Source: a virus
Direction: 5' to 3' (one strand)
Virus record (IMG/VR): IMGVR_UViG_3300018984_000002
Span: 102,777 to 127,110 of that record
Length of the DNA: 24,334 bases
In this document: positions 3,461 through 22,226 of the stretch, in pieces
Position numbering within the stretch: the stretch's first letter is position 1
Layout: every line of letters starts with the position of its first letter
The notes under the pieces: model-generated
Seen by the model: only the letters and a program-made list of their open reading frames with translations
Told to the model about the DNA's origin: nothing
The model's database searches: none
Translations under genes and position numbers: made by a program

Positions 3461-4573
3461 TCAGCGAACAGGACAAGATCCTTGACAATCTGCTTCTAAA
3501 TCATGAAGTTCTTCATTTACTTCGTATTGTTGTAATAAAGTTAATAGTTGAGCTTCGTTAAGAGTAGGAATACTCTTTTTTATTTCATCATACTCTTCTT
3601 TGGTGCAAGCTTCATTTGGCATTTGAGGGTGAGAACATTCTGGAGAATTAGGATCAAATCTTTTTAGTAAAGCTAAACCAATAACATAATCCCAATTATC
3701 GTACAACCATTTAGTAACATCTTCCCATTCATGATCTGCAACTGTAATGGTGTTACTAGTATTATGTCCATCCTTTGTATAGTTATTCTGAATAAGCTTA
3801 TAACGCTCAAGTTGAACTAAAGCAGATTCATCTATTGCGCGAATAGGTGTTGCTCCTTTTACACCAAACTTAAACACCCAAGTAGTACATTCTTCTGAGA
3901 AAAGAAGTTCCTCATTAGACATATTAAGCCTTTTGTTTCGGACATCCGTGTATTCCTTGTAGCTCATAAGATTGTTGTACAGACTACCTAGATCAGTGTA
4001 ATAAGCTTCTTCAGATAAGTCTGGATAATAATCACTACCTTGACTATTTTCTGGAGTAGGAATCATACCAGCTTCGTACAAAGCAGTAGCCAAAGGGTCA
4101 GACTTACTAAATCGAATTCGGCATATTTGATAAGGTGCATACCCACGACTAATTCCAGCTGATACTCCTGGTAGCTTACTGAGTGTTCCATTAGGTTTAA
4201 CTAAAGTAACTCTTGCGGAACGAGGAATACCTAAGTGCTTGTGGTATATGTCTGCTGCTTCTCGAATTGTCTTTGATAAAGCTTGATAAAAAAGTCTTGT
4301 CTCAAACTCATTCCAACCAAGTAAATCTAAAGCGTCTACAACACCTGTAATGTCTACTCCTAATAGCCTGTCTCGTTTTTGAACTTTATCCCATTCAGGA
4401 TGCCACTGGTCAGCTAAAGTTTGACGGCTACCTACTCGTGTTACCAAGTAAGCTGTTTGACTTAGTTTGAGATAGTCAACTAAATATTTACCTGTGTTCT
4501 CATCTTTAAAGATATGTTCCATTAAATTAATGGAAGTTAAATTGCAACTTTGTTTATCGTCTAATGCAGCTTC
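3461..4573 (-). CDS. nrdJ: class II (adenosylcobalamin-dependent, monomeric RTPR-type) ribonucleotide reductase, exon 3
   Basis: Frame is open 17 codons upstream of the ORF-track start: EAALDDKQSCNLTSINL-MEH...; also RLLGVDITG, TLVKPNGTLSKL, HNTSNTI and the C-terminal redox pair CQGSCPVR. Confidence 0.93.
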   Translation of the reverse strand, partial: EAALDDKQSCNLTSINLMEHIFKDENTGKYLVDYLKLSQTAYLVTRVGSRQTLADQWHPEWDKVQKRDRLLGVDITGVVDALDLLGWNEFETRLFYQALSKTIREAADIYHKHLGIPRSARVTLVKPNGTLSKLPGVSAGISRGYAPYQICRIRFSKSDPLATALYEAGMIPTPENSQGSDYYPDLSEEAYYTDLGSLYNNLMSYKEYTDVRNKRLNMSNEELLFSEECTTWVFKFGVKGATPIRAIDESALVQLERYKLIQNNYTKDGHNTSNTITVADHEWEDVTKWLYDNWDYVIGLALLKRFDPNSPECSHPQMPNEACTKEEYDEIKKSIPTLNEAQLLTLLQQYEVNEELHDLEADCQGSCPVR

Positions 4574-5744
4574 CGATTTGTTATCCTAAAGGTTTTTTAT
4601 CCTTTAGTTCTGTAGATTTCTATTTTCTACAGTCCCGCATATATTTTCTATATGGCTTTTTAAATAGAGAACTAAATCTTTTCTAGACAAAGAAGTTATA
4701 CCTAGAGCTAAACAAATAGATCTTGTATCCTTAATTCCTGTAGTTGTTTCTACATAATCAAGAAGAGGATTTAAAATAAGTCTAAGCTTATTAAGCTTTA
4801 TCTTTGACCCAAATAAATCTTTATTCTCTTCTGCCCAATTTAGAACTAAAGTTGTTAAAGATTGGGCATGATTAGTTCTATTAATGATTAGCTGATTTCT
4901 AGCTGCTTGTATAGTAATTCTATTTCCACAATCTAAAGAACAAAACTTCTTTTTGAAAGCTTGTGTCTCTGTTATATGTAACTCTAAATTACAAGCAGGA
5001 CAGTACCAGGAAACTCTTGGCGATTTAATTCTTCCTTTTAAAAATGTACGATCTTGGTTTTTAATTGCAGTCATGTATTTTTTGCGTACTTCAGGTCTTT
5101 TCCAAGCCTCTTTAATACCTATACTCATTTTATCTAAAGTACTTTTAGATACTTTAGCACCATATCTAGGATTCTTTTTTCCAGATACATCTGTGTGATT
5201 AGTTGCCACTGATTTCCAGTAGATTTTTAAATCATGAACAGGTAAATAAATAGATTTAAGTAGATTTTCTATATCTTTACTTGTCAAAATATCAATGTTG
5301 ATATTTAGCTCTTTCTTAAATTTATTTATTCTTTCAGTATCTCTTATTAAAAAGAAATCCCCTTTTATTTCAGTATAGGTTTTATCAGCTAACTTGAAAT
5401 CTGGTTTGTAAGCTTCTCCAGAATTTAAATACAAAGTCTCAGCTTCATACTCCCAAGGTGTTTTGAGGGCATCTAGATAAAATGCGTACAAAAATTCAAG
5501 AGTAGACCTTAAATACACGTCTTTATACTTTCCTGCATAACCAGATACATTTACATTTCTAGTCATATAGCTGCCCACTCGTGGTAGTTTATATTCTAGA
5601 TTATAAACAATAATGTAATCTAGGTTCACCTACTATGCTGTACGGTGTCAAAAGATTTTTAGTTCTTTTGCTTACCTCGGTATTTCCATTTCAGGATTCA
5701 CCGATTTTGGGCAGTTTTTAACGTGAGGCAAATTAAGCAAAGAT
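4574..5744 (-). mobile_element. group I intron nrdJ-I2 (1171 nt, probably IA3-like) with a homing endonuclease in the P8 region
   Basis: Follows an exon U (GTGGT) and ends in omega-G (...GATAACAAATCG). P3 CTGCCCA/TGGGCAG; P4-region ATCGGTGAA/ATACCGA; P7 GCATA/TATGC; P9 hairpins CTGTAGA..TCTACAG and TAAAGG..CCTTTA; P10 candidate GCTT/AAGC. Confidence 0.88.
4604..5566 (-). CDS. intron-encoded homing endonuclease, PD-(D/E)xK nuclease + NUMOD3 + Cys4 finger (likely start MTRNVN at 5566)
   Basis: YLRSTLE..WEYE..YKPDF..EIKG nuclease motif; GKKNPRYGAKVSKSTLDKMS (NUMOD3-like); CPAC...FCSLDC. The 3' end overlaps intron P7'/P9. Confidence 0.82.
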   Translation of the reverse strand: MTRNVNVSGYAGKYKDVYLRSTLEFLYAFYLDALKTPWEYEAETLYLNSGEAYKPDFKLADKTYTEIKGDFFLIRDTERINKFKKELNINIDILTSKDIENLLKSIYLPVHDLKIYWKSVATNHTDVSGKKNPRYGAKVSKSTLDKMSIGIKEAWKRPEVRKKYMTAIKNQDRTFLKGRIKSPRVSWYCPACNLELHITETQAFKKKFCSLDCGNRITIQAARNQLIINRTNHAQSLTTLVLNWAEENKDLFGSKIKLNKLRLILNPLLDYVETTTGIKDTRSICLALGITSLSRKDLVLYLKSHIENICGTVENRNLQN

Positions 5745-5749
5745 ACCAC
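5745..5749 (-). CDS. nrdJ: nrdJ exon 2: 5-nt micro-exon GTGGT
   Basis: Joining AAT CCG T|GT GGT|GAA GCT gives N-P-C-G-E-A, the invariant RNR active-site motif. The exon is preceded by an omega-G and ends in U. Confidence 0.88.
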
Positions 5750-5947
5750 CATCTATGTTAACTACAGTTTCATTTGTTATAGCTGTAGATCGGACTATAC
5801 CACCATCTTAAATAAGATGCCCATTGGTAGTCTCTAGCGGCTTCTAGATAATCTAGCTATCCGTCGGGATTGTCTACTTCTAGATGTTCCCCGATATTCT
5901 GGGTTTTCATAGTTAATCACTTAACTATGCCGCCTGGTTGATTATTG
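5750..5947 (-). mobile_element. group I intron nrdJ-I1 (198 nt, ORF-less)
   Basis: P1 exon CCGU pairs with IGS GCGG (U.G wobble); P10 ACCA/TGGT; P2 CATAGTTAA..TTAACTATG; P3 CCCA/TGGG; P4 TCGGG/CCCGA; P7 GACTA/TAGTC; P8 CATCTTA..TAAGATG; P9 CTACAG..CTGTAG; ends ...AACATAGATG. Confidence 0.88.
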
Positions 5948-7181
5948 ACGGATTACATCCCTTTACAGGACTATTAGCTAGTTTCTGTGAATTACCTATA
6001 ATCCAGAAACCAGGATCACCTATCTGTTTTATCTGCTCAATATCTTGAGATAATTTTTCATAACTTGGACGTTCATAGTACAGCATTGAGTTATTACTAA
6101 GTACTCGTGTCGCAGAATAAATAGACTTGTTTGGGTCAGTAAACAAATTTACTTTCGCGTCTACCAACTCTTTATTTTCTGGAGAAAATAAACCAATCAT
6201 AGCCGTTCGGCGTGTGCCACCTGAGACTACTCCTTCTCCAATACAATTGGCTATATCTAGGCAACAAATAGGAGTTAGCTTATAATTGTTAATGGTTAAA
6301 AAGCTTGCAATTTTATTAAACATTTTTTGCAAAGCTTGATGACCACTTGCACGTCCACCAAACGTTTTAATACGAGTTCCGGCAGGTCTTACATTATCGT
6401 AAATAAAAGTAATATGTTTGCTCTGACTAAATGTAAGAATGCTTAAGTATAAACGCAGAGCATTACACCAGCCTTCTTTACTATCCCCAACATAAATATC
6501 AAAAGTATTTCCAGAATCAATTGTCGCAATAAAATCTTTGTCATTAAGAATTAAGTCTTCTTTTGTGTATGTTCTCAATGACATTTCATCAATTTCATTG
6601 TACCAAGATACAATCAATTCAGTATTAGATTTTGATTCATCTTTTCCAAGATAATTATAATCATCGTGTTTAATAGTTGCTGGGTACAGCTTGGGCAAAT
6701 TAGCAACTGTTGTATCTTCTATATTAAATCCAGTACCAGCACCTAATAGTAGCCAATAAAAGATTTCACTAAAAGAACTAATACTATCAATTAGTCTTAA
6801 TGTGCAATTCCAGTTAGCACTAGAATCATATTTAGTTATTGCAGTATTCGCAATCCAATAACTACGTCCAGCAGCAAAACCACGTAAATTAAATAAGCAA
6901 TCAAACAGTAATTTAGCTTCTTCTTTTTTACTATCTAAACTACTAACAGTATCTAAGCTTAAACTATATTCCACAACACGCAAACAAGTTTCTGCAAACT
7001 TTTCACGGCGATTTAGTTCTGGAATAAAACGACTATATGTGCGTAGATAAACTACTACTCCAAGTTCACCAAATGGTGGTTCAATTTCTAAGTAAGGTTG
7101 ATAAAAATCCCAGTCAATATATTGGGGTTGTTGTAAATTAAAAAATGTTTTACAACTTTCTAATGATAATAGTGGTGTCAT
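5948..7181 (-). CDS. nrdJ: class II ribonucleotide reductase, exon 1 (spliced product 783 aa)
   Basis: GELGVVVYLRTYSR, NWNC, GAGTGF, DSKEGW, VRPAGTRIKTFGGRASG, VVSGGTRRTAMI, GDPG, GCNP; exon ends after the first T of the Cys codon. Confidence 0.95.
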
Positions 7182-8621: not shown

Positions 8622-8873
8622 TTAAAACGGTTGTTCGTCGTAGTCTACTAAATCTACGGTTTTGATGTAGGGCAGATATACCTTTCTTTTACGATAGTAT
8701 TTCCAGTCTATTTCTTCATTAGCTACAAATACGCTTACCCAAATAGCTGAATTTACTTGAATCAAAAGAGAATTAGTTCCTAGTAAATTTGTCCAACAAG
8801 TTAGCTGCCCAGAAAGATTACTTCCTGCTCCAGACCAAACTTCTGTAAATCCAATTGGTGGAATATTATCCAT
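8622..8873 (-). CDS. hypothetical protein (83 aa)
   Basis: ORF track; overlaps the upstream gene stop by 8 nt. Confidence 0.65.
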   Translation of the reverse strand: MDNIPPIGFTEVWSGAGSNLSGQLTCWTNLLGTNSLLIQVNSAIWVSVFVANEEIDWKYYRKRKVYLPYIKTVDLVDYDEQPF

Positions 8874-9225
8874 TATTAATCTTCTTTGATAAAACTAAGC
8901 CAAGCTCACCAGTCCAAGGAAAATCAGGTGCTGCTTTATATCTAAAAACATACCATTGATAATCTTTCTGGTAAATCTGAAATAGAATGTTAAAGTGTTG
9001 CAGCAATGCGTTTAACCTAGATTTAGTTGTTACAGTTCTATGATTAGCATCTTTTAGAATAATAAAATCATCATAAGCGATTATTGCAATTAAATTATTA
9101 AACAACCTGACTTCTATTAGTTTGTTATCTAACTGTAGTACTTTAGTGTTATTTTTCTGCCATGCTTTACCTGTAATGTAAACACTTTTAATTGCATTAC
9201 ACATTTCAGATTCTATTTTTCTCAT
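8866..9225 (-). CDS. conserved phage hypothetical protein of a family I recall from cyanophages
   Basis: MRKIESEMCNAI...W..NNT.V...VRLFNNLIA...TVTTKSRLNALL...IYQKDYQWYV pattern, recognised from memory. Confidence 0.75.
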   Translation of the reverse strand: MRKIESEMCNAIKSVYITGKAWQKNNTKVLQLDNKLIEVRLFNNLIAIIAYDDFIILKDANHRTVTTKSRLNALLQHFNILFQIYQKDYQWYVFRYKAAPDFPWTGELGLVLSKKINNG

Positions 9226-9536
9226 AGTAACACCAGTTTTACGGCGTCTTTATTAGTTGTTAAATGTAAGTCTTTAACTGCAATATCATCTGGTTCTAAT
9301 TCAAAACAATCTAAAGCTACAACAAACAACATATTAGACAGACAACAATTGTCTTTATTTACATGAAAATTTAATTCGTGTGTTAGAAACGTAGTTACAG
9401 TAATACCGCAAATATATTCATTCCACCACTGATAATACAGTTCTTTAGGAACGATAATTAATATATTTGAATAAGATTGTTTAATTTCATTAGCTGTTTC
9501 TGTAATCTTTTTTAATACTGATTCTGTATCTATCAT
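9222..9536 (-). CDS. hypothetical protein (104 aa)
   Basis: ORF track; ATGA-type overlap with the next gene. Confidence 0.7.
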   Translation of the reverse strand: MIDTESVLKKITETANEIKQSYSNILIIVPKELYYQWWNEYICGITVTTFLTHELNFHVNKDNCCLSNMLFVVALDCFELEPDDIAVKDLHLTTNKDAVKLVLL

Positions 9537-9589: not shown

Positions 9590-10186
9590 CTACATTGGTG
9601 GAAATGTCGGAGCAATAGGAGTCCCACGATGAACAATAATAGGTTCGTCTTCTTCACCGTCTAAGCCATTACCAAATTCATCTATGTCTGTGTCTTCGAG
9701 TTCTTCTTCTTCTTCGTCGGTATCCAAATCTGGCACACGTACTATATTGTTAGCAAGCTCATTTTGCACAGCCATTAGTAGTGGGTCATCATCTCCAACT
9801 GTAGCTACAGGTTCATCAATAATACCTTGTAGTTCATTTGCAACTTGTTGCAGATTATCGTTACCTTTTGTTTTCTTTTGAGGAATCCATTTAGATTCCA
9901 AAATTGCACTAAATCGTCGCAACAATTCTACTGGTTCTGCTTTAAATTCTTGCAGTTGTACTACCATGTCTGCATTAGATTCAACACCCAAAACATACAG
10001 AATGCTAATTGCTAGTTGCAAACGCTCTTTTGTTCCTTGTTCTGCAACAGAAGTAACGTAATTAATTAATGAACGTTTTGCTGGTAGTTTTACGGTGTCT
10101 TTTCTTACATACTGAGATGCCAGTTCACGAGCTTTCTCTTCAGATTGACCAGACTGAATTAGTAGGTTGTATAGGTTAAGATCCAT
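9590..10186 (-). CDS. helical protein with a highly acidic C-terminal tail; last gene of the ubiquitin-like operon
   Basis: AAGGAAA RBS upstream of ATG 10186; tail DLDTDEEEEELEDTDIDEFGNGLDGEEDE. Confidence 0.8.
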   Translation of the reverse strand: MDLNLYNLLIQSGQSEEKARELASQYVRKDTVKLPAKRSLINYVTSVAEQGTKERLQLAISILYVLGVESNADMVVQLQEFKAEPVELLRRFSAILESKWIPQKKTKGNDNLQQVANELQGIIDEPVATVGDDDPLLMAVQNELANNIVRVPDLDTDEEEEELEDTDIDEFGNGLDGEEDEPIIVHRGTPIAPTFPPM

Positions 10187-10216
10187 GTTCAATTTCCTTG
10201 TTGGTTTATTTAATAA

Positions 10217-11380
10217 CTAGAAAGGAGCAACAGCATTTAATTTTGTTCTTAATGCTTCTCTTTCAGTTGAATCTAAGGTCAAATCATTATAGTACTTATT
10301 TAGTAACTCTGTTGGAGAAGCTAATTGTACTTCTGTGGTGGGATTAGGTAAATCAGGTACTAAAGCGGGTGAGCTACTTGGTGGATTAATTTTTTCTTCT
10401 TCTTTTTTCTCAGCTATATGATGAGCAAGTAGCCCTTTACTTTGAGTTCTGTTTACATATTCTTTAGATATGTTTTCTAAGTAACTCTTCATCAACTTTT
10501 CTGGATCTACTAAAGTAGGCGAATCACTTGGCGGATTGATTTCTTTTTCCTCAGTTGTTTCTTCCTTTTTCTCAGCTAGTTTTTGCTCTAATATCTGTTG
10601 TCTTACCTCTACTAAATCAATAAGTTGACCCACAGGTTGCATTTGTCTAGTAGTCAAATCAAACTTTGTAAGCGGCTGAAATTTAAGCTGCTTAAACAAA
10701 CTAACAAACTCATTAAACATCAGTGTAGCTACTTGCTGATTCGCCATCACAGTCTGTGGCTCTGTCTGTTGCCGTTCTTGACAACTCGTTACACTAGGGT
10801 CTGCATTACGCACGTTTTCAAACAAAATACGAGGGTCTTGTCCTAATAATACTACAGTATCATCTATGGTTGTCTTGATGCAAGTTGTCACTTGCCCTGT
10901 ATATTCTGTGTTGCCACCATCAATAACAATAAAGTCTCCCTTATATTTCGGACCTTCATTTACGTATTTCCTTTCTTTAGCATCAAAAACACCCACAAGT
11001 TCTGACCAAATAGCATTCCTTGCCCTTGCCGAATCTACACACACAAACACTAGTATCTTTGCTTGCTGCTCTGACATTACTCCAATGTCTAATGGAAGGC
11101 TATCTACATCCAATTTAACGGGCAATGCTTCGACATACCCAAAACCGCTGGTGGCAATAAACTTACGTTTGATTACTTCAACCTTGGGTTTACCAGCTTC
11201 AAGCCGATCAAAGTCTTGACGTTCAGCATTTCTATCCTCAATGATATCATCATCAGCTAGAATTACACGCCGGGGATTAAAATGTGAAAATGGTATATAC
11301 TTTGCTAATAACTGACACAATTGACTACCAGTTCCACCTACTCCTACCACGTAGACGCTATACTCACTTAGTCTTAACAT
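10217..11380 (-). CDS. ThiF/E1-family ubiquitin-like-protein activating enzyme
   Basis: VVGVGGTGS (nucleotide binding), DDDIIEDRNAERQ, GKPKVEV, CVDSARAR, DGGN, putative catalytic SC in DPSVTSCQE...PQTVMAN. No CxxC zinc motifs, as in PRTRC-type ThiF. Confidence 0.92.
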   Translation of the reverse strand: MLRLSEYSVYVVGVGGTGSQLCQLLAKYIPFSHFNPRRVILADDDIIEDRNAERQDFDRLEAGKPKVEVIKRKFIATSGFGYVEALPVKLDVDSLPLDIGVMSEQQAKILVFVCVDSARARNAIWSELVGVFDAKERKYVNEGPKYKGDFIVIDGGNTEYTGQVTTCIKTTIDDTVVLLGQDPRILFENVRNADPSVTSCQERQQTEPQTVMANQQVATLMFNEFVSLFKQLKFQPLTKFDLTTRQMQPVGQLIDLVEVRQQILEQKLAEKKEETTEEKEINPPSDSPTLVDPEKLMKSYLENISKEYVNRTQSKGLLAHHIAEKKEEEKINPPSSSPALVPDLPNPTTEVQLASPTELLNKYYNDLTLDSTEREALRTKLNAVAPF

Positions 11381-11381
11381 A

Positions 11382-12125
11382 TTAATCTCCTACTCGTTTT
11401 AGACTGTAACCATCGAAGTGCATTGTATTTTCTTCGTCTGTATACCTTTGTGGATCTCCATAAGGTATAGTTTCAAACTCGCCAGGTTGAAAATGTTTGG
11501 GGCTATCTGTATCTAAAATCCACCTCAACTTTGTTTCATTATCGTTTCCAGAAGGGTCATAATCCCAGTATTGTTCTCTGGGTGACCAGTTTTCTACTAA
11601 ATATCTTAAATCTTCTCCTGAAAAATTATAGTCATCGTTGCGTACACAGTTAAAAAAATGACTATGTATATCAACTAAAAAAGTATGATCGTCTCTACTA
11701 CCTGAATATTCCCCTATGCAGAAGCTACCATCGGTGTCTACATTTCCTATGTACATAGGTAGCAAGCGAGTATTTAAATCAAACTCACCATTCGCTTCTG
11801 GATGAATACAATAAAAATAAGGTACATTACGCTTTAAAACCATTACGTAAGGTGGTACTCGTCTAGCTATATACTCTATTTTGTTTTCTGGTTTATACCC
11901 AAATCTACAATCATAATTCTGTATTACCTTTGTACCACCTTTGCAGATATTCGACGTGTGATATTTACATTGTCTGCAATGTGTGTAGTAACTTTTTTGA
12001 GATGTTATAGTTTCGTCAGACAATATTTTTAATACAACATCTACTTCGTCGCACAACATTGCAACCGTTTGAAGTTCTCCGTACAATAAACCTTTTGCGT
12101 TGTTTGGAGTTCTAAATCTAGTCAT
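11382..12125 (-). CDS. prokaryotic E2-like (UBC-fold) protein, paralogue B, with a Cys4 insert
   Basis: LLPMYIGNVDTDGSFCIG matches the spacing of the E2 active-site signature (HP)N(I/V)xxxGxIC; later FFNCVRNDD; CxxC-x7-C-x11-C insert; lies between JAB and E1. Confidence 0.75.
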   Translation of the reverse strand: MTRFRTPNNAKGLLYGELQTVAMLCDEVDVVLKILSDETITSQKSYYTHCRQCKYHTSNICKGGTKVIQNYDCRFGYKPENKIEYIARRVPPYVMVLKRNVPYFYCIHPEANGEFDLNTRLLPMYIGNVDTDGSFCIGEYSGSRDDHTFLVDIHSHFFNCVRNDDYNFSGEDLRYLVENWSPREQYWDYDPSGNDNETKLRWILDTDSPKHFQPGEFETIPYGDPQRYTDEENTMHFDGYSLKRVGD

Positions 12126-12128
12126 TAT

Positions 12129-12902
12129 TTAGTCTCCCATTCTTTTCAATAAAAATCTGTGAAATACAATTAAATCAGGGTTATCCAAATCTGTGTTGAA
12201 ACTGTTGTTAAATAACGCAGATTCGTAAGTTCCTGGTTCAAAAGTTCGCCAATTACTATTCGAGTTTATTCTCATTACTCTTTTGAAAGAGTTTAAACCA
12301 GGAATTCTTTTAAAATTTCCATTATTAGCTTGAAACTCAGGCAACCACTGTTTAACTAGTTCTGAAATTTTTAGATAACTATAGTTATAATCATTATTAC
12401 GTGTACAATTCAAAAAATGAAGATAATGTTTTTCTAAGAAGAGACACTCATTACTTAAATCTTCTAAGCCAGATCCAGTACAAAAACTTCCATCAGTATA
12501 CACATTACCCATCATAATTGGAAGTAGATTTGTGTTTAGAGATAAAGAATCTAAGTTTTGCCCTGGAGCAAAGCAATAAAAATAAGGTTCATACAATCCT
12601 TTTAAAACCATTAAATGCTGCGGTAGAGTCTTAGGTACATATTCAGTTTCTTTCAATCGTTTTGTTGACTTAAAACATCCTTCCGATAATTTCCTTAATC
12701 CACCAACACAAGTTTCTGTTATATACTTTTCACAAGGTCTACAAAGAGAATAAAAATCTTTCTGGCTAATATCATATTCTCCAGTATTTACTTTAAATAC
12801 CACATCTACTGGGTTACACCACATTGCTAAGTAGCGATTTTCTGCGTTATATAATAACTGTTTGCAATGTTTAGGAGTTTTAAATATTGCCATTGTAGTC
12901 AA
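12129..12902 (-). CDS. prokaryotic E2-like (UBC-fold) protein, paralogue A, with a Cys4 insert
   Basis: LLPIMMGNVYTDGSFCTG, FLNCTRNND, CxxC-x7-C-x10-C; alignable end to end with 11382..12125 (e.g. F.PG.(F/Y)E, LKR(M/V)GD). Confidence 0.75.
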   Translation of the reverse strand: MTTMAIFKTPKHCKQLLYNAENRYLAMWCNPVDVVFKVNTGEYDISQKDFYSLCRPCEKYITETCVGGLRKLSEGCFKSTKRLKETEYVPKTLPQHLMVLKGLYEPYFYCFAPGQNLDSLSLNTNLLPIMMGNVYTDGSFCTGSGLEDLSNECLFLEKHYLHFLNCTRNNDYNYSYLKISELVKQWLPEFQANNGNFKRIPGLNSFKRVMRINSNSNWRTFEPGTYESALFNNSFNTDLDNPDLIVFHRFLLKRMGD

Positions 12903-13842
12903 AGTTAAATTTATTTAAATTAGCAATAGTTTCTTCGATATCTTTTTGACTGTATTTAGTAAGTAAAGCTTCGACTATCTCATCTAAAGAATAGGTTGTA
13001 ATCACTTCACTTAAATACATCTGACCTATTAGGTTAGTAGAATCCCACAGATATTGTGAATTATTTACAGTCTTAGGTACATAGCCCACTTGACCTTGTA
13101 ATAAGTTGTAATTTTTATATTTAGGTACAACAGGCACAAAACGGCTTACTAAGTCATGCACCTTTGGAGAATAACTGGCGTTGTAAACTAGTATTTCTTC
13201 ACCATCTGAAATACCCTCAACAATTTCACTAACAGGTATATCTAATCTTTTGTTTCGAGTTCTTAAACCATCATTTACAACTACATTAGTTCGTAGTGTA
13301 AATACAGCTTTTTTGTCTTTACTACTACGCCAACAAGAAAATATACCATAGCCACAAGGTACATCCAATTCACCTGTACCTGGACGATTTGGAAATCCAT
13401 TGTCATCAATCCCACTTGGACCTGGTATATCGAATGGATGTACATGAAACTGCCAGAGGGTTAGCCAATTAATATCCGGCAAACTAACATCTTCTCCAGT
13501 CTCTAGATCACGAGCAATTTTATATTCAAATGTATCAACACTAGCCCCCGCAATAGTTTGAGTAGGAACAAATACTTTATGTGACTTCGTGTTGGGATTA
13601 TAGACTACTCTTGCGTGTACTTCTAAATTTTTACTAGCATAATCATAAAAAAACTTAGATAGTTTCTTGAATAAATAATCTGGAATTTTAGGGATACTAG
13701 GGCTTGGCTCAAAATGTTCTAATGCACTTTCGTCTAAGCTATTTGGTTCAGGTGTAGGGTCAAGCGCTAAGTAATGCCCATATGGTTTGATTTCTTTAAA
13801 ACAAATACGCAGCCCATTTGATAGTCTTATTGTGTTAGACAT
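12880..13842 (-). CDS. JAB/JAMM (MPN+) metallopeptidase, prokaryotic JAB / PRTRC protein A-like
   Basis: PKIP...E-VHARV...VPTQTIAGASV, and HVHPFDIPGPSGIDD = HxH-x7-S-x2-D JAMM motif. Confidence 0.87.
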   Translation of the reverse strand: MSNTIRLSNGLRICFKEIKPYGHYLALDPTPEPNSLDESALEHFEPSPSIPKIPDYLFKKLSKFFYDYASKNLEVHARVVYNPNTKSHKVFVPTQTIAGASVDTFEYKIARDLETGEDVSLPDINWLTLWQFHVHPFDIPGPSGIDDNGFPNRPGTGELDVPCGYGIFSCWRSSKDKKAVFTLRTNVVVNDGLRTRNKRLDIPVSEIVEGISDGEEILVYNASYSPKVHDLVSRFVPVVPKYKNYNLLQGQVGYVPKTVNNSQYLWDSTNLIGQMYLSEVITTYSLDEIVEALLTKYSQKDIEETIANLNKFNFDYNGNI

Positions 13843-13878
13843 AGTATTTAAAATATAAGTTGATTAGACATGAGTAAT

Positions 13879-13924
13879 AGTCCGAAATAATAAGGTTTAG
13901 TGGTTTCCCTATTTATTTCGGACT
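13879..13924. repeat. GTCCGAAATA-family inverted repeat (copy 5), directly upstream of the JAB gene
   Basis: AGTCCGAAATAA ... TTATTTCGGACT, 12-bp arms. Confidence 0.85.
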
Positions 13925-13937
13925 TTTTATTGTTGGT

Positions 13938-14654
13938 TTAAATTAATCCCAATATAAAAGCCAAAGCTTCATCTAAATAGATGATGTCACTACCAACATA
14001 AATAGTTTGATTTTTACTGTTCTTTGTGGGTTCAGACTGTTTACCCATTCTGTAGTATTGTGCAGCTTTCTTTCTTAATGCATCTAAATGAGTATTATCT
14101 AGTTTCTTTAAACGTAAGTATTGTTCTGCTGTAACTACTAAATCGTCTGCGTAATTATTTTTATTTTCTTCTTTTAAAACATCAGCACAACCCGGATGTA
14201 TAATACCTGCTAATTCTAGCTGTTGTTTCTCTTCTTGTAATTGATTTAATTTCTCGTGATCTACAGCCAAAACATTTAATTGTTGTTGCATCTGTTGCAT
14301 TAATTCTAAAAATGTATCTGGAATATTAGTTACTTGTTTAGCTACTTTTTCACATTCAAGGAAATACAATCTAACTTTATTCCCTTGTTCTGTTTTACTT
14401 AACATTGCCCACATTTTAAAACACTCTATTGTTAGAGATATTTTTTCTATGTTGGTTGAACCTATTTCTCGCTCCACAGTATTGTGGACTGAACTAAAAT
14501 CCACACCTTCAATAAAACCAGAATTTAAAAATGCACGTTTAGCACTATCTTTCCTGGAATAACCTAACCAAACAAAAGCGGCATCAAAATCAACTGGAAA
14601 TTGTTCGTCAGATTCTACTAACTGTTTTGCAACATCTAAACTAAATTCAGTCAT
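13938..14654 (-). CDS. phage antirepressor-like (AntA/KilA-N-related) DNA-binding protein with coiled coil
   Basis: FPVDFDAAFVWLGYSRKDSAKR...GFIEGVDF...LTIECFKMWAML..TEQG.KVRLYFLECEK, followed by a Q-rich coiled coil. Confidence 0.8.
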   Translation of the reverse strand: MTEFSLDVAKQLVESDEQFPVDFDAAFVWLGYSRKDSAKRAFLNSGFIEGVDFSSVHNTVEREIGSTNIEKISLTIECFKMWAMLSKTEQGNKVRLYFLECEKVAKQVTNIPDTFLELMQQMQQQLNVLAVDHEKLNQLQEEKQQLELAGIIHPGCADVLKEENKNNYADDLVVTAEQYLRLKKLDNTHLDALRKKAAQYYRMGKQSEPTKNSKNQTIYVGSDIIYLDEALAFILGLI

Positions 14655-14655
14655 A

Positions 14656-14952
14656 TTATTTCGGACTCCGTACTCGTTTTATATTTAATGTTTTACCAAA
14701 ATTTGTATGTGCTACAACCACATATTCTTGTACATTATTTGCATTCATATGAGAAGCATCAATTCCTGCAAGAAAAGGATATTGGTTTAATAAAGACTGT
14801 CTGCATTTTTCAACAGAATCTCCTTTAACTAAATCAATAGTATGTATGTCTCTATCTAGCATATATGCCATCATCCTTTTCATTTCATTTAGACCATCTT
14901 GAAATGCTTTTCCAGTAATTAAAGTCAGAATAGCTTCTATTGAGAATTCCAT
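14656..14952 (-). CDS. conserved phage hypothetical protein (likely start MEFSIEAIL at 14952)
   Basis: FSIEAILTLITG...C..SLLNQYPFL pattern; the shorter start removes the overlap with the upstream gene. Confidence 0.65.
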   Translation of the reverse strand: MEFSIEAILTLITGKAFQDGLNEMKRMMAYMLDRDIHTIDLVKGDSVEKCRQSLLNQYPFLAGIDASHMNANNVQEYVVVAHTNFGKTLNIKRVRSPK

Positions 14953-14983
14953 AACTAAGCTTTTATCCACTACTACTTTTTCA

Positions 14984-15223
14984 TTAATTTTCCCAAACCG
15001 TAAAATTAACATCTTCTATTTGTTTAGAAGCTATTAGCTCTAAATCGTCTTGCAGTTGTTCTGTTTCAACATTATCAAAGTCTTTATCTAACTTGATACT
15101 AGAAAATTGGTTTATTAATTTAGCTGCCGCTGGTTCTATGTATTTCTTATCGCAGTATTTTTTGAATTCTTCTTCTGTAACATAATATGTTTTATGTATT
15201 AAAACTTTAATTACTTTAACCAT
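14984..15223 (-). CDS. small hypothetical protein (paralogue of 15226..15456)
   Basis: IKVLIHKTYYVTEEEFKKY...DDLELIASKQIEDVNFTV. Confidence 0.7.
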   Translation of the reverse strand: MVKVIKVLIHKTYYVTEEEFKKYCDKKYIEPAAAKLINQFSSIKLDKDFDNVETEQLQDDLELIASKQIEDVNFTVWEN

Positions 15224-15225
15224 AA

Positions 15226-15456
15226 TTAACTATGTACGATTAAGTTTATTTCTTCCTTTTGTTTGTCTACCAAGGAAGTTAGTTCATCTAATAGGCTAGA
15301 ATTTATAACATCTCTAGCATCCTCAGCTAAAAAGAAATCAGAGCTATAAACTCTGGTAGCTACATCCCCATATCCATTTGTTTTTAAATAAACTAAAAAT
15401 TCTTCGTATGTTAAAACAATCTTTTTAGTTAATGTAACTTCTATCATGTGTGCCAT
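15226..15456 (-). CDS. small hypothetical protein (paralogue of 14984..15223)
   Basis: IEVTLTKKIVLTYEEFLVY...DELTSLVDKQKEEINLIV; AGGAA RBS. Confidence 0.7.
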   Translation of the reverse strand: MAHMIEVTLTKKIVLTYEEFLVYLKTNGYGDVATRVYSSDFFLAEDARDVINSSLLDELTSLVDKQKEEINLIVHS

Positions 15457-15481
15457 TTCAATTCCTAAATTAAAAAAGAAA

Positions 15482-15509
15482 ACAGAGTAGAGCCTAAACC
15501 CTACTCTGT
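15482..15509 (-). terminator. intrinsic terminator after Ubl-2
   Basis: ACAGAGTAG/CTACTCTGT stem followed by TTTCTTTTTT on the minus strand. Confidence 0.8.
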
Positions 15510-15539
15510 ATTAACTAACCTAGACAATAAAAAAATATC

Positions 15540-15923
15540 TTAGCCAGCAGTACCACTGGATTGTTGCAAAGAATATTCACTGTCTTCGTCTACAGTTTCT
15601 TCTGCAACTTCAGTATAAGCACTAGCATTGTTTGTTTTAGTATCCAGAATCGTCAATTCATTTACATTAACAGTCAAGCCTAAAAGCTTAACTGCTTGTG
15701 CAACAATTTCACGCACACTAGTACCTTTCTTGGTTTTGATTTCTTGTGAATTAAAATTAACACTAACTTTGACAGTAATGTCACCATCCGATTCCGAGAC
15801 TTGAGATACTTGTGCAGTTACGCTTTCAGTATTTTCAGTAGGCAAAGAAATAGAATCACTGTTATTACTAACGTTAGTAGAAGCAAACTTAGAAAAGAAA
15901 TTAGAGAAGATATTGTTAGACAT
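15540..15923 (-). CDS. ubiquitin-like (beta-grasp) protein 2, 127 aa (start MSNNIF at 15923)
   Basis: ITVKVSVNFNSQEIKTKKGTSVREIVAQAVKLLGL...LTILD...VDEDSEYSLQQSSGTAG* fits the strand-strand-helix-strand beta-grasp pattern with a terminal Gly; AGGAAA RBS. Confidence 0.78.
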   Translation of the reverse strand: MSNNIFSNFFSKFASTNVSNNSDSISLPTENTESVTAQVSQVSESDGDITVKVSVNFNSQEIKTKKGTSVREIVAQAVKLLGLTVNVNELTILDTKTNNASAYTEVAEETVDEDSEYSLQQSSGTAG

Positions 15924-15967
15924 TTGAGTTTTCCTAGAATAAAGTAAAAGTAAAAGTGAAAAAGAAA

Positions 15968-15995
15968 GCATAGCCAAGTAAAATCTCAGCTATGC
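15968..15995 (-). terminator. intrinsic terminator between Ubl-1 and Ubl-2
   Basis: GCATAGC/GCTATGC stem followed by TTTCTTTTTC on the minus strand. Confidence 0.65.
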
Positions 15996-16024
15996 AAAGC
16001 TAACCTAATTGAACTCAACCTACC

Positions 16025-16408
16025 TTAACCTGCTGTACCACTAGATTGTTGTAGTGACAACTCTGTATCTGCATTTACAGGGGATTCTGCAACTTCGGAA
16101 TATGCATTTGCCACATTTGTTTTAGTGTCCAATAGAGTAAGTTCGTTAATACTTACAGTCAAACCCAGCAGCTTCAAACCCTGAGCTACAATATCGCGGA
16201 TTGGTGTACCTCGCTTAACTGTGATTGGAGTCGAGTTAAAATTAACGCTTACTACAACTGTGATTTCATCAGAGTCCGATGTACTAGGAGTTTCAGTTAC
16301 TTGAGCTGTAATAGATTCTGTGTTTTCTGTAGGTAAAACAACATCGCTATTGTTACTAACGTTAGTAGAGGCAAATTTGGAGAAGAAGTTGGAGAATACG
16401 TTAGACAT
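16025..16408 (-). CDS. ubiquitin-like (beta-grasp) protein 1, 127 aa
   Basis: ITVVVSVNFNSTPITVKRGTPIRDIVAQGLKLLGL...VNADTELSLQQSSGTAG*; AAGGAAA RBS; close paralogue of Ubl-2. Confidence 0.78.
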   Translation of the reverse strand: MSNVFSNFFSKFASTNVSNNSDVVLPTENTESITAQVTETPSTSDSDEITVVVSVNFNSTPITVKRGTPIRDIVAQGLKLLGLTVSINELTLLDTKTNVANAYSEVAESPVNADTELSLQQSSGTAG

Positions 16409-16475: not shown

Positions 16476-16820
16476 TTAAGCTGCTTGCGCTAGATACAAG
16501 TCCCATAACTCGTCTTTAGATAATAACCCTGGTTTACGGTGTAGTATAGGTGCAATGAAGTCCGAAAATAATAGGGATTCTTGCTTTGCCCCATTTATTT
16601 CGGTCACTCTTACATCTTCGTCTGGACTACCTACACATAGCGAGAAATACCCCAATCCTGTAATGACATACACAGCTTTTGGATTACGGCGAACAAACAG
16701 GTACAGTGATTCATTGTCTAATCCATTGCAGACGCGATACAACCATTCAATAGTGACAGGATTTTGGGCAACTTCTAACCGGAGGGAGTTACCATTGTGC
16801 AATAATTCAATAGCTTGCAT
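16476..16820 (-). CDS. hypothetical protein (114 aa)
   Basis: AAGGAA RBS; contains an internal degenerate GTCCGAAA...TTTCGGTC inverted pair (16560-16605). Confidence 0.7.
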   Translation of the reverse strand: MQAIELLHNGNSLRLEVAQNPVTIEWLYRVCNGLDNESLYLFVRRNPKAVYVITGLGYFSLCVGSPDEDVRVTEINGAKQESLLFSDFIAPILHRKPGLLSKDELWDLYLAQAA

Positions 16821-21136: not shown

Positions 21137-22226
21137 CCTTTTTGTTTAATAGATGTCGTTAGTATCTATTGACTTAAATAAGTCCTCATACTTTCGTATG
21201 AGAGCAGACTATATCTTCATCTCTGCATAAACAGAGAGTCGCCCACTTCCATCTACTTAGATGTACTCCCTCGCGGGATAGTCGTTGAACCTTCCTCATA
21301 TCTTACAACTTAGAGGCTTGGCTGCTGATTTAGGAATCTTCATCTCTTTTACTTTACGGTAGGAATTAACTACCCCATTAAGTATGTTTCCATCTTAATT
21401 TAGTGTATGAAGCTCTAACCTAGTTCCAGTCAATTCAGGCGATAACCACTATATATCGCTATATAGCTGCACAATTGAGTTATTTGATATTACAAGCATC
21501 AAAAGCCTCTTTTTTTCTCTTTAGATACAGTTCAGCGTCTCTATACATCCAATCTCCAAACTTTAAACATTGCAATCTACCACAGTAAGCCAAAGTATTT
21601 ATATTATTATCTCTTTCAGGAAATCTAGGAATCATTTTGTTTTTATTGAACCCTAACTCAGTTACAAGTAATTCCTGTAAAGATAATAAAAAATCATTTG
21701 TACCTACTAAAGAAAAGTATTTTTTCTTTGATTTACTGATATGACCATCCCCATCAAAATAACCTCTTACAAAATGACTAAGTAAAGATTTATTTACTTG
21801 ATCGTTTGTTGGAAATTTAAGTGTGAATGTCTTTTTGTCAGTACACCCCAATTCGCTTAATCTTGTAGATATTTTTCTGCTACAAATAGTTAAGCGATAT
21901 TGTCGAGAAAGATTACTGTTGTGATAGGTTACAAGTTGAAGCGGTTTGCTTGGTTGAATTAAAGCGCTTAATTGAACCAGTATATCCGTATCCCTCTCCT
22001 GTAAATTAATAGAAATAGCCCCTCTTTTAGTATTGTTATATCCATCGGCATACAGTATACCTAAGAAATAAGCTTTATCAGGGGTATCTATAATATCGAA
22101 ATAAGTTTGGTCAAGAGGGTATTTTCGGCAAACGGTTTTACCTGTATTCAAAGAATTCATAGTATCTACATAAATATGTACATACTATTATATTGGCTTT
22201 GCCTATAATTTCATTTAACTTACTTT
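21137..22226 (-). mobile_element. group I intron (1090 nt, IA2-like) with a LAGLIDADG endonuclease ORF 5' of the catalytic core (L1 region)
   Basis: Splice GAC AT|G AAT restores ELDID-M-N; exon ends in U, intron ends in G. P3 TCGCC/GGCGA; P AATTGACTGGAA and Q AATCAGCAG; R TTCAACGACTA; P7.1/P7.2 hairpins (TCCCGCGAGGGA, CATCTAAGTAGATG); S GAAGATATAGTC; P9 CTCATACGAAAGTATGAG. Confidence 0.92.
21480..22160 (-). CDS. intron-encoded two-motif LAGLIDADG homing endonuclease
   Basis: DKAYFLGILYADG and FVRGYFDGDGH motifs, KKTFTLKFP, C-terminal YLKRKK. Confidence 0.92.
   Translation of the reverse strand: MNSLNTGKTVCRKYPLDQTYFDIIDTPDKAYFLGILYADGYNNTKRGAISINLQERDTDILVQLSALIQPSKPLQLVTYHNSNLSRQYRLTICSRKISTRLSELGCTDKKTFTLKFPTNDQVNKSLLSHFVRGYFDGDGHISKSKKKYFSLVGTNDFLLSLQELLVTELGFNKNKMIPRFPERDNNINTLAYCGRLQCLKFGDWMYRDAELYLKRKKEAFDACNIK

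What the first reader, a model, noticed from the sequence alone, without database searches (positions are those of the whole stretch)
9590..16408. A complete ubiquitin-like conjugation pathway (2 Ubl, E1, 2 E2, JAB) encoded by a phage
Seen: an operon JAB (HxH-x7-SxxD) > E2-A (GNVYTDGSFC) > E2-B (GNVDTDGSFC) > ThiF/E1 (GxGGTG, SC) > acidic protein, with gaps of 25 nt or less. About 1.7 kb upstream are two tandem beta-grasp-like genes, both ending SLQQSSGTAG-stop. No sulfur-transfer genes (ThiG, MoaE, rhodanese) occur in the window. Established: E1+E2+JAB+Ubl cassettes occur in bacteria (PRTRC cassettes, whose Ubl ends in GTKG; antiphage Bil and CBASS Cap2/Cap3 conjugation systems). Inference: here the virus carries the writer and eraser itself, with duplicated modifier and duplicated E2. 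The Ubls already end in Gly and need no maturation, so JAB is probably a deconjugase, which implies reversible tagging of host or phage proteins (host takeover, counter-defence, or exclusion of other phages). I know of no functionally characterised phage-encoded system of this architecture, but cannot exclude earlier bioinformatic mention.
Basis: partly seen in the sequence, partly recalled or inferred. Interest (0 to 1): 0.92.

Follow-up and report, generated by a model that had tools for sequence, protein, structure and literature searches.

The report
Phage-encoded ubiquitin-like tagging gene cassette
A complete 127-kb uncultured phage carries its own ubiquitin-like tagging kit (two tag proteins, an activating enzyme, two transfer enzymes, a trimming/removal protease); it is a very diverged relative of the bacterial "PRTRC" cassette, for which I found no functional study.

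Summary

Evidence for each component:
- E1: Pfam ThiF above cut-off; the best NCBIfam match is PRTRC_ThiF.
- E2-A and E2-B: the AF2 model matches almost only UBC/E2 chains. The profile aligns to PRTRC_B / Prok-E2_D with the Asn...Cys loop in register (hhalign 86.7%).
- JAB: E74, H133, H135, S143 and D146 are invariant. The family profile reaches viral proteins that Pfam calls Prok-JAB.
- Ubls: the Atlas model matches only beta-grasp families. The predicted E1:Ubl complex scores 0.83 against a best control of 0.01, with the tail Gly at the ATP loop.

The replicon is viral (TerL, major head protein, CheckV 99%) and probably virulent, since no integrase was found.

The module Ubl-Ubl-JAB-E2-E1-acidic protein recurs in three related contigs, one of them in IMG/VR. 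The second E2 and a 1.6-kb insert are private to this phage.

It is not a PRTRC member: it has no ParB, and no curated model passes. I class it as a new variant of a known kind. Targets and biological role are unknown.

This scan has already noted PRTRC-like cassettes on many other phage genomes, so the class is recurrent. I found no paper describing one.

The parts
16476..16820 (-). Conserved 114-aa gene of unknown function directly upstream of the tag genes
   Evidence: Syntenic homologues sit in L007 (8623-8973) and L008 (2042-2386). It is absent from distant L009, so its membership of the module is uncertain. No family match.
16025..16408 (-). Ubl1: 127-aa ubiquitin-like tag. It has a conserved N-terminal motif (M-S-N-V-F-S-N-F-F-S-K-F), a low-complexity linker, a beta-grasp domain (about residues 45-120) and the C-terminus SGTAG-stop.
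   Evidence: The ESM Atlas model of residues about 40-127 matches only beta-grasp clusters (Rad60-SLD/ubiquitin, UBX/TUG, DUF2604, YukD, MoaD/ThiS, SAMP2), with TM about 0.5 by query. Weak Pfam TUG-UBL1 match, E 1.2e-3. Predicted E1:Ubl complex ipSAE 0.83 against a best control of 0.01; partner pLDDT 89. The Gly-x-Ala-Gly end is invariant in the eight homologues aligned, in one of them followed by three extra residues.
15968..15995 (-). Terminator-like hairpin plus T-run just after Ubl1
   Evidence: Consensus scan: 11-bp stem, then TTTCTTTTTC. Function not shown.
15540..15923 (-). Ubl2: second 127-aa tag, 72% identical to Ubl1 (start corrected to ATG 15923)
   Evidence: Tandem tag pairs also occur in L007, L008 and L009.
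15482..15509 (-). Terminator-like hairpin plus T-run just after Ubl2
   Evidence: Consensus scan: 12-bp stem. Function not shown.
13938..15456 (-). Lineage-specific insert of four genes (76 aa, 79 aa, 118-aa DUF7736, 238-aa Ant-like anti-repressor) that splits the tags from the enzymes
   Evidence: PHROG anti-repressor Ant, 8e-12; DUF7736, 2.8e-7. In L007, L008 and L009 the second tag gene abuts the JAB gene, with a gap of about 70-115 nt.
12880..13842 (-). JAB/JAMM-type metallopeptidase (320 aa). Catalytic set: E74, H133, H135, S143, D146.
   Evidence: These residues are invariant in five homologues, identity down to about 30%. The family HMM hits the ORF just upstream of E1 in other IMG/VR contigs (L067 5e-8, L065 4e-6), which Pfam calls Prok-JAB (23.5 bits, and 29.1 bits above the cut-off of 25). 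hhalign against PRTRC_A gives P 0.013 with the motifs in register. No direct Pfam or NCBIfam hit. The AF2 model is unusable, pLDDT 40.
12129..12893 (-). E2-A (254 aa from the ATG). UBC-like core with catalytic Cys138 in G129-N130-x7-C138, and a Cys4 insert (C51, C54, C62, C73).
   Evidence: AF2 model: pLDDT 73, pTM 0.76. In the VIA wide search nearly all of the top 39 rows are UBC/E2 or UEV chains, Z 5-6, rmsd about 3.5 A, about 115 residues aligned. Atlas fold hits are Prok-E2_D clusters. hhalign against PRTRC_B-type proteins: 86.7%, P 4e-6. The Cys residues are invariant in the 12-member family.
11382..12125 (-). E2-B (247 aa), a paralogue of E2-A. Catalytic Cys136; same Cys4 insert.
   Evidence: 37% identity to E2-A, E 2e-45. 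Relatives L007, L008 and L009 have only one E2.
10217..11380 (-). E1: ThiF-type adenylating enzyme. Adenylation domain about residues 1-260 with G13xGGxG18, D43/D45, D116, R121 and invariant C200; a private C-terminal extension (about 262-387) carries an internal repeat.
   Evidence: Pfam ThiF 49.9 bits (cut-off 28.1). The best NCBIfam match is PRTRC_ThiF at 52.5 bits, below its 144.75 cut-off. Invariant residues. In the predicted complex the Ubl tail touches residues 13, 15-18, 114-118 and 121.
9590..10192 (-). Conserved partner of unknown function: about 110-aa conserved N-terminal region plus a strongly acidic tail
   Evidence: Homologues follow E1 in L007, L008 and (more distantly) L009. 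No family in Pfam, NCBIfam, PHROGs or PADLOC.

Best explanation
This is a working ubiquitin-like protein conjugation cascade encoded by a virulent-type, about 127-kb tailed phage.

Proposed steps:
1. The ThiF-type E1 binds either 127-aa beta-grasp tag.
2. E1 adenylates the tag's C-terminal Gly127 and takes it as a thioester on the loop Cys200.
3. The tag passes to the catalytic Cys of a UBC-like E2 (Cys138 of E2-A, Cys136 of E2-B). Each E2 carries a Cys4, probably zinc-binding, insert.
4. The E2 attaches the tag to amino groups of target proteins, possibly helped by the conserved acidic partner.
5. The JAMM peptidase removes tags, and in relatives also trims tag precursors.

What is shown: domain identities, conserved catalytic residues, conserved gene linkage and the predicted E1:tag docking geometry.

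What is inferred: the chemistry, the targets and the biological role. My best guess for the role is a conflict function during infection, acting on host or rival-element proteins. The module lies among the nucleotide-metabolism and repair genes, not among the virion genes.
For: Replicon:
- Viral: TerL (phrog_38, 1.6e-93) and major head protein. IMG/VR record, CheckV 99%.
- A 138-bp end repeat.
- No integrase or resolvase.

E1:
- Pfam ThiF above cut-off; the best NCBIfam match is PRTRC_ThiF.
- The ATP loop, the Asp residues and Cys200 are invariant.

Tags:
- Beta-grasp by Atlas structure matches.
- E1:Ubl score 0.83 against a best control of 0.01. That mark was reached by 58 of 80 solved complexes and 2 of 110 mismatched pairs. 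Runs agree in at least 96% of contacts; partner pLDDT at least 88.
- Tail residues 120-127 lie on the GxGGxG loop and D116.

E2:
- UBC fold matches and Prok-E2_D fold clusters.
- 3 of 12 family members hit Pfam Prok-E2_D.
- HMM and hhalign homology to PRTRC_B with the N-x7-C loop aligned. PRTRC_B is Pfam Prok-E2_D.

JAB:
- Invariant E...HxH...SxxD.
- Transitive link to Pfam Prok-JAB.

Linkage:
- The same order, Ubl-Ubl-JAB-E2-E1-acidic, occurs in L007, L008 and distant L009.
- Genes overlap or abut.

No rhodanese in the genome.
Against:
- The JAB and both E2s have no direct hit in Pfam, NCBIfam, PADLOC or PHROGs.
- The JAB fold could not be modelled.
- Foldseek against PDB found nothing for the E2 model. 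The VIA Z scores of 5-6 are modest in absolute terms.
- The E1:Ubl pass may partly reflect likeness to solved MoeB-MoaD-type complexes, and it used my own shallow alignments.
- No E3, target or host is identified.
- E1-like enzymes with beta-grasp partners can also make thiocarboxylates.
Confidence: 0.7

Rival explanations
1. The same cascade is used for superinfection exclusion. Like bacterial Bil systems, it would tag structural proteins of competing phages, protecting the infected cell for the resident phage.
For: [quoted passage not shown] Phages often carry defence systems (10.1101/2024.10.26.620412, section 3.4). The component set here is the same.
Against: No integrase or resolvase was found, so there is no obvious long residence in a host to defend. 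The E1 is a single short adenylation domain, not the tandem IAD-AAD-CYS form of BilD (PMC11601596). No PADLOC hit beyond weak matches to the ThiF domain.
Confidence: 0.15
2. The tags are attached to the phage's own proteins (virion, replication or regulatory proteins) as a step in assembly or timing. This would echo the Ubl-JAB pair in lambdoid tail assembly genes.
For: Ubl plus JAB pairs occur in lambda and T1 tail assembly clusters (PMC1779556, section 13). Each tag gene is followed by a terminator-like hairpin, which would suit tags made in excess over the enzymes.
Against: The module lies among UvdE, DHFR, RNR and thymidylate synthase genes. It is on the opposite strand to, and about 80-100 kb from, TerL and the major head protein. 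The lambda system has no E1 or E2.
Confidence: 0.15
3. This is a sulfur-carrier or other small-molecule pathway. E1 adenylates the tag to form a thiocarboxylate for cofactor or nucleoside thiolation, as with ThiS/ThiF, MoaD/MoeB or TtuB.
For: The E1 also scores against ThiF and MoeB models. The tag matches MoaD/ThiS and SAMP2 clusters among other beta-grasp families.
Against: No rhodanese in the genome. None of the window proteins scanned matched ThiG, MoaE or another sulfur-transfer family. A conserved E2 with an invariant catalytic Cys and a conserved JAMM peptidase have no role in such pathways. The E1 lacks the paired CxxC zinc motifs typical of MoeB/ThiF (seen directly in the sequence; the comparison is from my own knowledge).
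Confidence: 0.04
4. This is a decayed or non-functional remnant of a captured bacterial cassette.
For: The sequences are extremely divergent. A 1.6-kb insert splits the module.
Against: All reading frames are intact. Catalytic residues are invariant across relatives at 20-60% identity, and gene order is kept in four lineages. The same proteins occur on up to 7 contigs in public assemblies.
Confidence: 0.03

Closest known systems
PRTRC (ParB-Related, ThiF-Related Cassette; NCBIfam TIGR03735-03742; probably operon type 6d of Iyer, Burroughs & Aravind 2006, PMC1779556, judged from its component list)
   Same: The components match: Ubl, JAB peptidase, E2-like protein with a catalytic Cys and a single-domain ThiF-type E1. 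The best NCBIfam match of the phage E1 is PRTRC_ThiF. The phage E2 profile aligns to PRTRC_B (Pfam Prok-E2_D) with the Asn-x7-Cys loop in register. The JAB motifs align to PRTRC_A. I found no functional study of either.
   Different: The phage has no ParB anywhere in its genome and no PRTRC_C, E or F. No curated model reaches its cut-off. Gene order is JAB-E2-E1 here, against F-B(E2)-A(JAB)-ThiF in locus L013. The phage has two tandem tags with a conserved N-terminal motif, a Cys4 insert in the E2, a much longer JAB (320 aa against about 190-220) without DUF2016, and an acidic partner. It sits on a virulent-type phage; the PRTRC papers retrieved concern plasmids, genomic islands and ICEs.
Other viral E2(Prok-E2_D)-JAB-E1 cassettes in IMG/VR (L065/L066, L067/L068) and uncharacterised uncultured Caudovirales proteins in BFVD
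   Same: An E2 or a large protein, then Prok-JAB, then ThiF, adjacent on viral contigs. The E2 model matches uncharacterised phage proteins (A0A6J5MFC0, E 1.5e-5) and Prok-E2_D Atlas clusters in which the commonest recorded phylum is Uroviricota.
   Different: E1 identity is only 27-32%. The E2 of L065 is recognised directly by Pfam, whereas the window's is not. No acidic-partner homologue and no significant match to the tag profile were detected there with my profiles.
Bil (BilABCD) anti-phage Ubl conjugation system
   Same: It has separate Ubl, E2, JAB and E1 genes, and protein conjugation has been demonstrated (PMC11601596; PMC10557695).
   Different: [quoted passage not shown] This E1 is a single domain of about 260 aa. 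Bil is host-encoded defence. No PADLOC match was found here.
Type II CBASS Cap2/Cap3
   Same: E1 and E2 chemistry plus a JAB peptidase. The ThiF domain gives weak PADLOC E1-E2 hits.
   Different: Cap2 is an E2-E1 fusion that conjugates a CD-NTase rather than a free Ubl. There is no fusion here: E2 and E1 are separate genes.
ThiS-ThiF / MoaD-MoeB sulfur-carrier pairs
   Same: The same E1 fold, and the predicted docking of a beta-grasp C-terminal Gly in the adenylation site.
   Different: Those pathways have no E2 or JAB. Here no rhodanese was found in the genome and no sulfurtransferase partner among the window proteins scanned.

Membership tests
PRTRC cassette | ParB-family protein in the cassette | tested here: not met
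   PF02195 ParB_N: no match in the whole 127-kb genome at E<=1.
PRTRC cassette | ThiF protein passing TIGR03736 (PRTRC_ThiF) | tested here: not met
   It is the best-scoring NCBIfam family, but at 52.5 bits against a cut-off of 144.75.
PRTRC cassette | PRTRC_B (Prok-E2_D) E2-like protein | tested here: not met
   No direct hit with TIGR03737 or PF14460. Remote homology is nevertheless supported: family HMM E 9e-8 to 3e-4 on PRTRC_B-type ORFs, hhalign 86.7%, and 3 of 12 family members hit PF14460.
PRTRC cassette | PRTRC_A (DUF2016 + Prok-JAB), PRTRC_C, E and F | tested here: not met
   No NCBIfam or Pfam hit for any window protein. hhalign of the JAB family against PRTRC_A gives only P 0.013.
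E2/UBC superfamily | UBC-like fold | tested here: met
   The VIA wide search gives almost only UBC/E2/UEV chains at the top: Z 5-6, rmsd about 3.5 A, about 115 residues aligned. Foldseek against PDB was silent, so this is moderate support.
E2/UBC superfamily | Catalytic Cys eight residues after the Asn of the HPN-type loop | tested here: met
   G-N-x7-C is invariant in the 12 family members and aligns to P-N-x7-C of PRTRC_B. The equal spacing to eukaryotic HPN...C is from my own knowledge. The His and Pro of HPN are absent.
JAB/JAMM (MPN+) metallopeptidases | E ... HxH-x7-S-xx-D metal and catalytic motif | tested here: met
   E74, H133, H135, S143 and D146 are invariant in five homologues (the spacer is x8 in L009).
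JAB/JAMM (MPN+) metallopeptidases | MPN fold, or membership of Pfam Prok-JAB | tested here: inconclusive
   No direct PF14464 hit. The AF2 model has pLDDT 40. There is a transitive link through L065 and L067, which do hit Prok-JAB. Atlas structure leads to Prok-JAB and PRTRC_A have TM below 0.4.
E1 / ThiF adenylating enzymes | ThiF domain with Gly-rich ATP loop and catalytic Asp | tested here: met
   PF00899 at 49.9 bits against a cut-off of 28.1. G13xGGxG18, D43, D45 and D116 are invariant.
Beta-grasp ubiquitin-like modifiers | Beta-grasp fold ending in an exposed C-terminal Gly | tested here: met
   The Atlas model matches only beta-grasp families. Partner pLDDT is 89, and tail residues 120-127 sit in the E1 active site in the predicted complex. 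The Gly-x-Ala-Gly end is invariant in eight sequences, in one followed by three extra residues.
Bil (BilABCD) | E1 with tandem IAD-AAD plus a mobile Cys domain (as described in PMC11601596) | tested here: not met
   There is a single ThiF match over residues 2-232, and the conserved core is only about 260 aa in the four homologues.
Type II CBASS (Cap2/Cap3) | E2-E1 fusion protein next to a CD-NTase | tested here: not met
   E2 and E1 are separate genes. PADLOC E1-E2 hits cover only E1 residues 3-90, with E values from 3.6e-5 to 0.03.
ThiS/MoaD sulfur-carrier systems | Sulfurtransferase (rhodanese) or synthase partners (ThiG, MoaE) | tested here: not met
   No rhodanese in the genome. None of the window proteins scanned matches such a family.

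The most novel reading that the evidence does not exclude
A virulent phage uses its own two-tag ubiquitin-like system offensively. Early in infection it would covalently tag host proteins (defence, repair or replication factors) or rival elements. The Cys4-finger E2s would act as combined E2/E3 enzymes that choose targets directly. The acidic partner would serve as an adaptor, and the JAMM peptidase would make the marks reversible. That would be the first ubiquitin-type writer/eraser system shown to be wielded by a virus of prokaryotes, and it would give a functional handle on the whole unstudied PRTRC / Prok-E2_D lineage.
Probability: 0.3. Interest if true: 0.85.

Novelty: new variant of a known kind. 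Interest (0 to 1): 0.6.

Why it matters
Bacterial ubiquitin-like conjugation has so far been shown to work only as host defence (CBASS Cap2/Cap3 and Bil). The PRTRC / type 6d lineage was predicted in 2006, and I found no functional study of it.

Here a complete, self-contained version sits in a virulent-type phage, next to its nucleotide-metabolism and repair genes. Catalytic residues are intact and gene order is conserved across related contigs.

If it is active, phages also use ubiquitin-type tagging in the arms race, not only their hosts. The cassette is small: six genes, each tag only 127 aa. That makes it a tractable system for finding what PRTRC-type cassettes modify.

The family-specific features also mark it as a distinct branch worth biochemical study. 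These are the paired tags with a conserved N-terminal motif, the Cys4-finger E2 and the acidic partner.

Tried and rejected
- DNA searches of the region and of the whole window against deposited phages found no match.
- tblastn of JAB and E2-A against deposited phages found none. The E1 gave one weak hit, MT835919 at 26.7%.
- Word-based homologue search for E2-B returned only the protein itself. The profile search for JAB added nothing beyond four close relatives.
- A single-protein IMG/VR scan with E1 found nothing. The E2 alignment was too variable to scan with.
- phmmer and hmmsearch against PDB sequences for E1, JAB, E2 and the family profiles gave nothing meaningful.
- Direct family searches in the genome with Prok-JAB, Prok-E2_D and PRTRC_B gave no candidates.
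- Pfam on more distant JAB and tag homologues found no JAB or Ubl family.
- The AF2 model of JAB from four sequences had pLDDT 40 and was unusable, so no fold search was run on it.
- Foldseek against PDB with the E2 model gave no hit at E<=0.001.
- My tag, JAB and acidic-protein profiles found nothing significant in the bacterial PRTRC-type loci.
- Literature: I expected the 2021 jumbo-phage survey to mention phage E1/E2/JAB sets. It does not. No paper in the searchable library describes a phage-encoded Ubl-E1-E2-JAB cassette.
- The idea of one E2 per tag is rejected as a family rule, because relatives have two tags and a single E2.
- The 119-aa gene downstream is not a fragment of the PcfJ-like gene of L007.

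Full report
**1. What is in the sequence**

All genes of the window run on the minus strand. In the direction of transcription they are:
- a conserved 114-aa gene (16476-16820);
- Ubl1 (16025-16408);
- Ubl2 (15540-15923);
- four small or accessory genes (13938-15456);
- a 320-aa protein carrying HVHPFDIPGPSGID (12880-13842);
- two paralogous proteins of about 250 aa, with GNVYTDGSFC and GNVDTDGSFC (12129-12893 and 11382-12125);
- a ThiF-type protein (10217-11380);
- a 200-aa protein with an acidic tail (9590-10192).

The five enzyme-side genes overlap or are 1-24 nt apart. The two tags are 72% identical, and both end SLQQSSGTAG-stop. The two E2 candidates are 37% identical.

The ORF lister's 145-aa form of Ubl2 begins at a TTG inside a terminator-like hairpin. 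The real start is ATG 15923, preceded by AGGAAA, which gives 127 aa. Each tag gene is followed by a hairpin and a T-run.

**2. The replicon is a phage**

The window is the last 24 kb of a single 127,110-bp contig whose first 138 bp recur at its end. It is an IMG/VR virus record that CheckV rates 99% complete.

It encodes a large terminase (phrog_38, 1.6e-93), a major head protein and primase/helicase-type proteins. Inside the window it encodes thymidylate synthase, DHFR, a split B12-type ribonucleotide reductase, UvdE and homing-endonuclease-like genes.

No integrase, resolvase or ParB was found. No species-representative bacterial genome carries a close copy of the E1; the best is 28% identity. 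A virulent lifestyle is therefore likely.

TerL is at most 38% identical to that of any deposited phage.

**3. Identity of each component**

*E1.* Pfam ThiF scores 49.9 bits against a cut-off of 28.1. The best NCBIfam model is PRTRC_ThiF, below its cut-off. The GxGGxG loop, D43/D45, D116, R121 and Cys200 are invariant in four homologues.

*E2.*
- Nothing in Pfam, NCBIfam, PADLOC or PHROGs hits either paralogue.
- An exhaustive profile search of 1.8 billion representative proteins found only 14 relatives.
- Their alignment shows an invariant Cys4 pattern (C51, C54, C62, C73) and an invariant G-N-x7-C-x-G loop.
- Three of the twelve aligned members weakly hit Pfam Prok-E2_D.
- The AF2 model has pLDDT 73 and pTM 0.76. 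Foldseek against PDB gave nothing. The full-library VIA search gave a top list made almost only of UBC/E2 and UEV chains: Z 5-6, rmsd about 3.5 A, about 115 aligned residues.
- The Atlas shape search returned Prok-E2_D clusters, in one of which the commonest recorded phylum is Uroviricota. BFVD returned uncharacterised proteins of uncultured Caudovirales.
- The family HMM hits the gene just upstream of E1 in bacterial loci at E 9e-8 to 3e-4. NCBIfam calls those genes PRTRC_B and Pfam calls them Prok-E2_D.
- hhalign gives 86.7% probability (P 4e-6), with the Asn...Cys loop in register.

*JAB.*
- There is no direct family hit, and the AF2 model was unusable.
- E74, H133, H135, S143 and D146 are invariant across five homologues, identity down to about 30%.
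- The family HMM finds the ORF immediately upstream of E1 in other IMG/VR contigs (5e-8 and 4e-6). The alignment covers the Glu strand, and in L067 and L068 also the HxH...SxxD segment.
- Pfam calls those proteins Prok-JAB: 29.1 bits (above the cut-off) and 23.5 bits.
- hhalign to ten PRTRC_A proteins gives P 0.013 with the motifs aligned.

*Ubl.*
- There is only a weak TUG-UBL1 hit.
- The ESM Atlas's own model of Ubl1 (residues about 40-127) matches only beta-grasp families.
- The predicted complex of E1(1-262) with Ubl1(40-127) scored 0.83 against a best control of 0.01. That mark was reached by 58 of 80 solved complexes and 2 of 110 mismatched pairs. Runs agree in at least 96% of contacts; partner pLDDT is at least 88.
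- Tag residues 120-127 lie against E1 residues 13, 15-18, 114-118 and 121, which is the adenylation site.
- This supports binding but does not prove it. It may partly reflect likeness to solved MoeB-MoaD-type complexes.

**4. Conservation of the module**

JAB homologues led to three further contigs: L007 (111 kb, also in IMG/VR as L064), L008 and the much more distant L009.

All three carry Ubl-Ubl-JAB-E2-E1-acidic protein in that order (in L009 one small ORF lies between E1 and the acidic gene). In all three the second tag gene abuts JAB, and there is a single E2.

So the tandem tags are a family trait. The second E2 and the 1.6-kb insert (an Ant-like gene, a DUF7736 gene and two small ORFs) are private to this phage.

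In the window and in L009, the two tags resemble each other more than they resemble any orthologue. L007-U1 and L008-U1 are orthologous.

One L009 tag ends ...NAGEAG-SRN, so trimming is needed there.

Only one cassette exists in this genome.

**5. Mechanism**

Best reading, about 0.7: a working cascade E1 (Cys200) to E2 (Cys138 or Cys136) to target, with JAMM-mediated removal and trimming.

The chemistry, the targets and the role are inferred.

The position beside UvdE, DHFR and RNR, and far from the virion genes, suggests a role during infection. That favours a conflict or takeover role over an assembly role.

Rivals: superinfection exclusion in the manner of Bil, self-modification of phage proteins, a sulfur-carrier role, and decay. 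These are weighed in their own sections.

**6. Comparison and novelty**

The nearest known system is PRTRC, probably operon type 6d of Iyer et al. 2006 (PMC1779556). The phage module fails PRTRC membership:
- no ParB;
- no PRTRC_C, E or F;
- no curated cut-off is reached;
- the gene order differs.

It also differs from Bil, whose E1 has tandem domains (PMC11601596), and from CBASS Cap2, which is an E2-E1 fusion.

In the searchable literature I found no description of a phage-encoded Ubl-E1-E2-JAB cassette.

Other notes of this scan report PRTRC-like cassettes on many other phage genomes: 187 notes in at least 153 genomes. My own searches also show Prok-E2_D-JAB-E1 sets on other IMG/VR contigs.

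The class is therefore recurrent but unstudied. This branch is a rare and distinctive variant of it.

Noticed in passing
window 3461-7181 (minus strand): The B12-type ribonucleotide reductase is split into two ORFs (5925-7181 and 3461-4522), with an endonuclease-like ORF (4604-5629) between them. That points to introns or an intein.
   Followed up: no
window 10217-10600 (E1 residues about 262-387): The E1 of this phage alone has a C-terminal extension of about 125 aa. It contains a twice-repeated stretch (EKKEE...INPPS-SP-LV). Relatives end at about 260-295 aa.
   Followed up: partly
window 16370-16408 and 15885-15923 (N-termini of both tags): All eight tag homologues share an N-terminal motif of the form M-x-x-(I/V)-F-(S/T)-N-(F/L)-F-x-x-F, ahead of a variable acidic/Ser-Thr linker. 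Its role is unknown; it may dock to a partner or a target.
   Followed up: partly
window 12650-12760 and 11900-11990 (E2 residues about 48-76): An invariant C-x2-C-x7-C-x10-C pattern is inserted before the UBC core. It is poorly modelled by AF2 (pLDDT below 50) and lies outside the part of the profile that aligned to PRTRC_B-type proteins. It is likely a zinc knuckle that could recognise targets.
   Followed up: partly
L007:13236-14690: In the related phage, a 484-aa protein with a PcfJ-like domain (E 1e-4, below the cut-off) follows the acidic gene. The window has two unrelated small genes there instead (9222-9536 and 8866-9225).
   Followed up: partly
L009:4277-4585: One tag of the distant relative ends NAGEAG-SRN, whereas its neighbour ends NAGEAG-stop. 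This is a natural precursor form that implies proteolytic maturation.
   Followed up: partly
G000:C1 1-138 and 126973-127110: The first 138 bp of the contig are repeated at its end, which indicates a circular assembly or a short terminal repeat. IMG/VR nevertheless lists the record as linear.
   Followed up: partly
window 21480-22160 and 2629-3366: There is a free-standing LAGLIDADG-type endonuclease gene and a CYTH-domain protein gene among the nucleotide-metabolism genes.
   Followed up: no
window 22220-23590: A 456-aa protein of unknown function (phrog_1735, 2e-149) is conserved at 42-45% identity in large Bacillus phages. It also has matches in Salmonella, Klebsiella and other phages: 556 phage records in all.
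   Followed up: no
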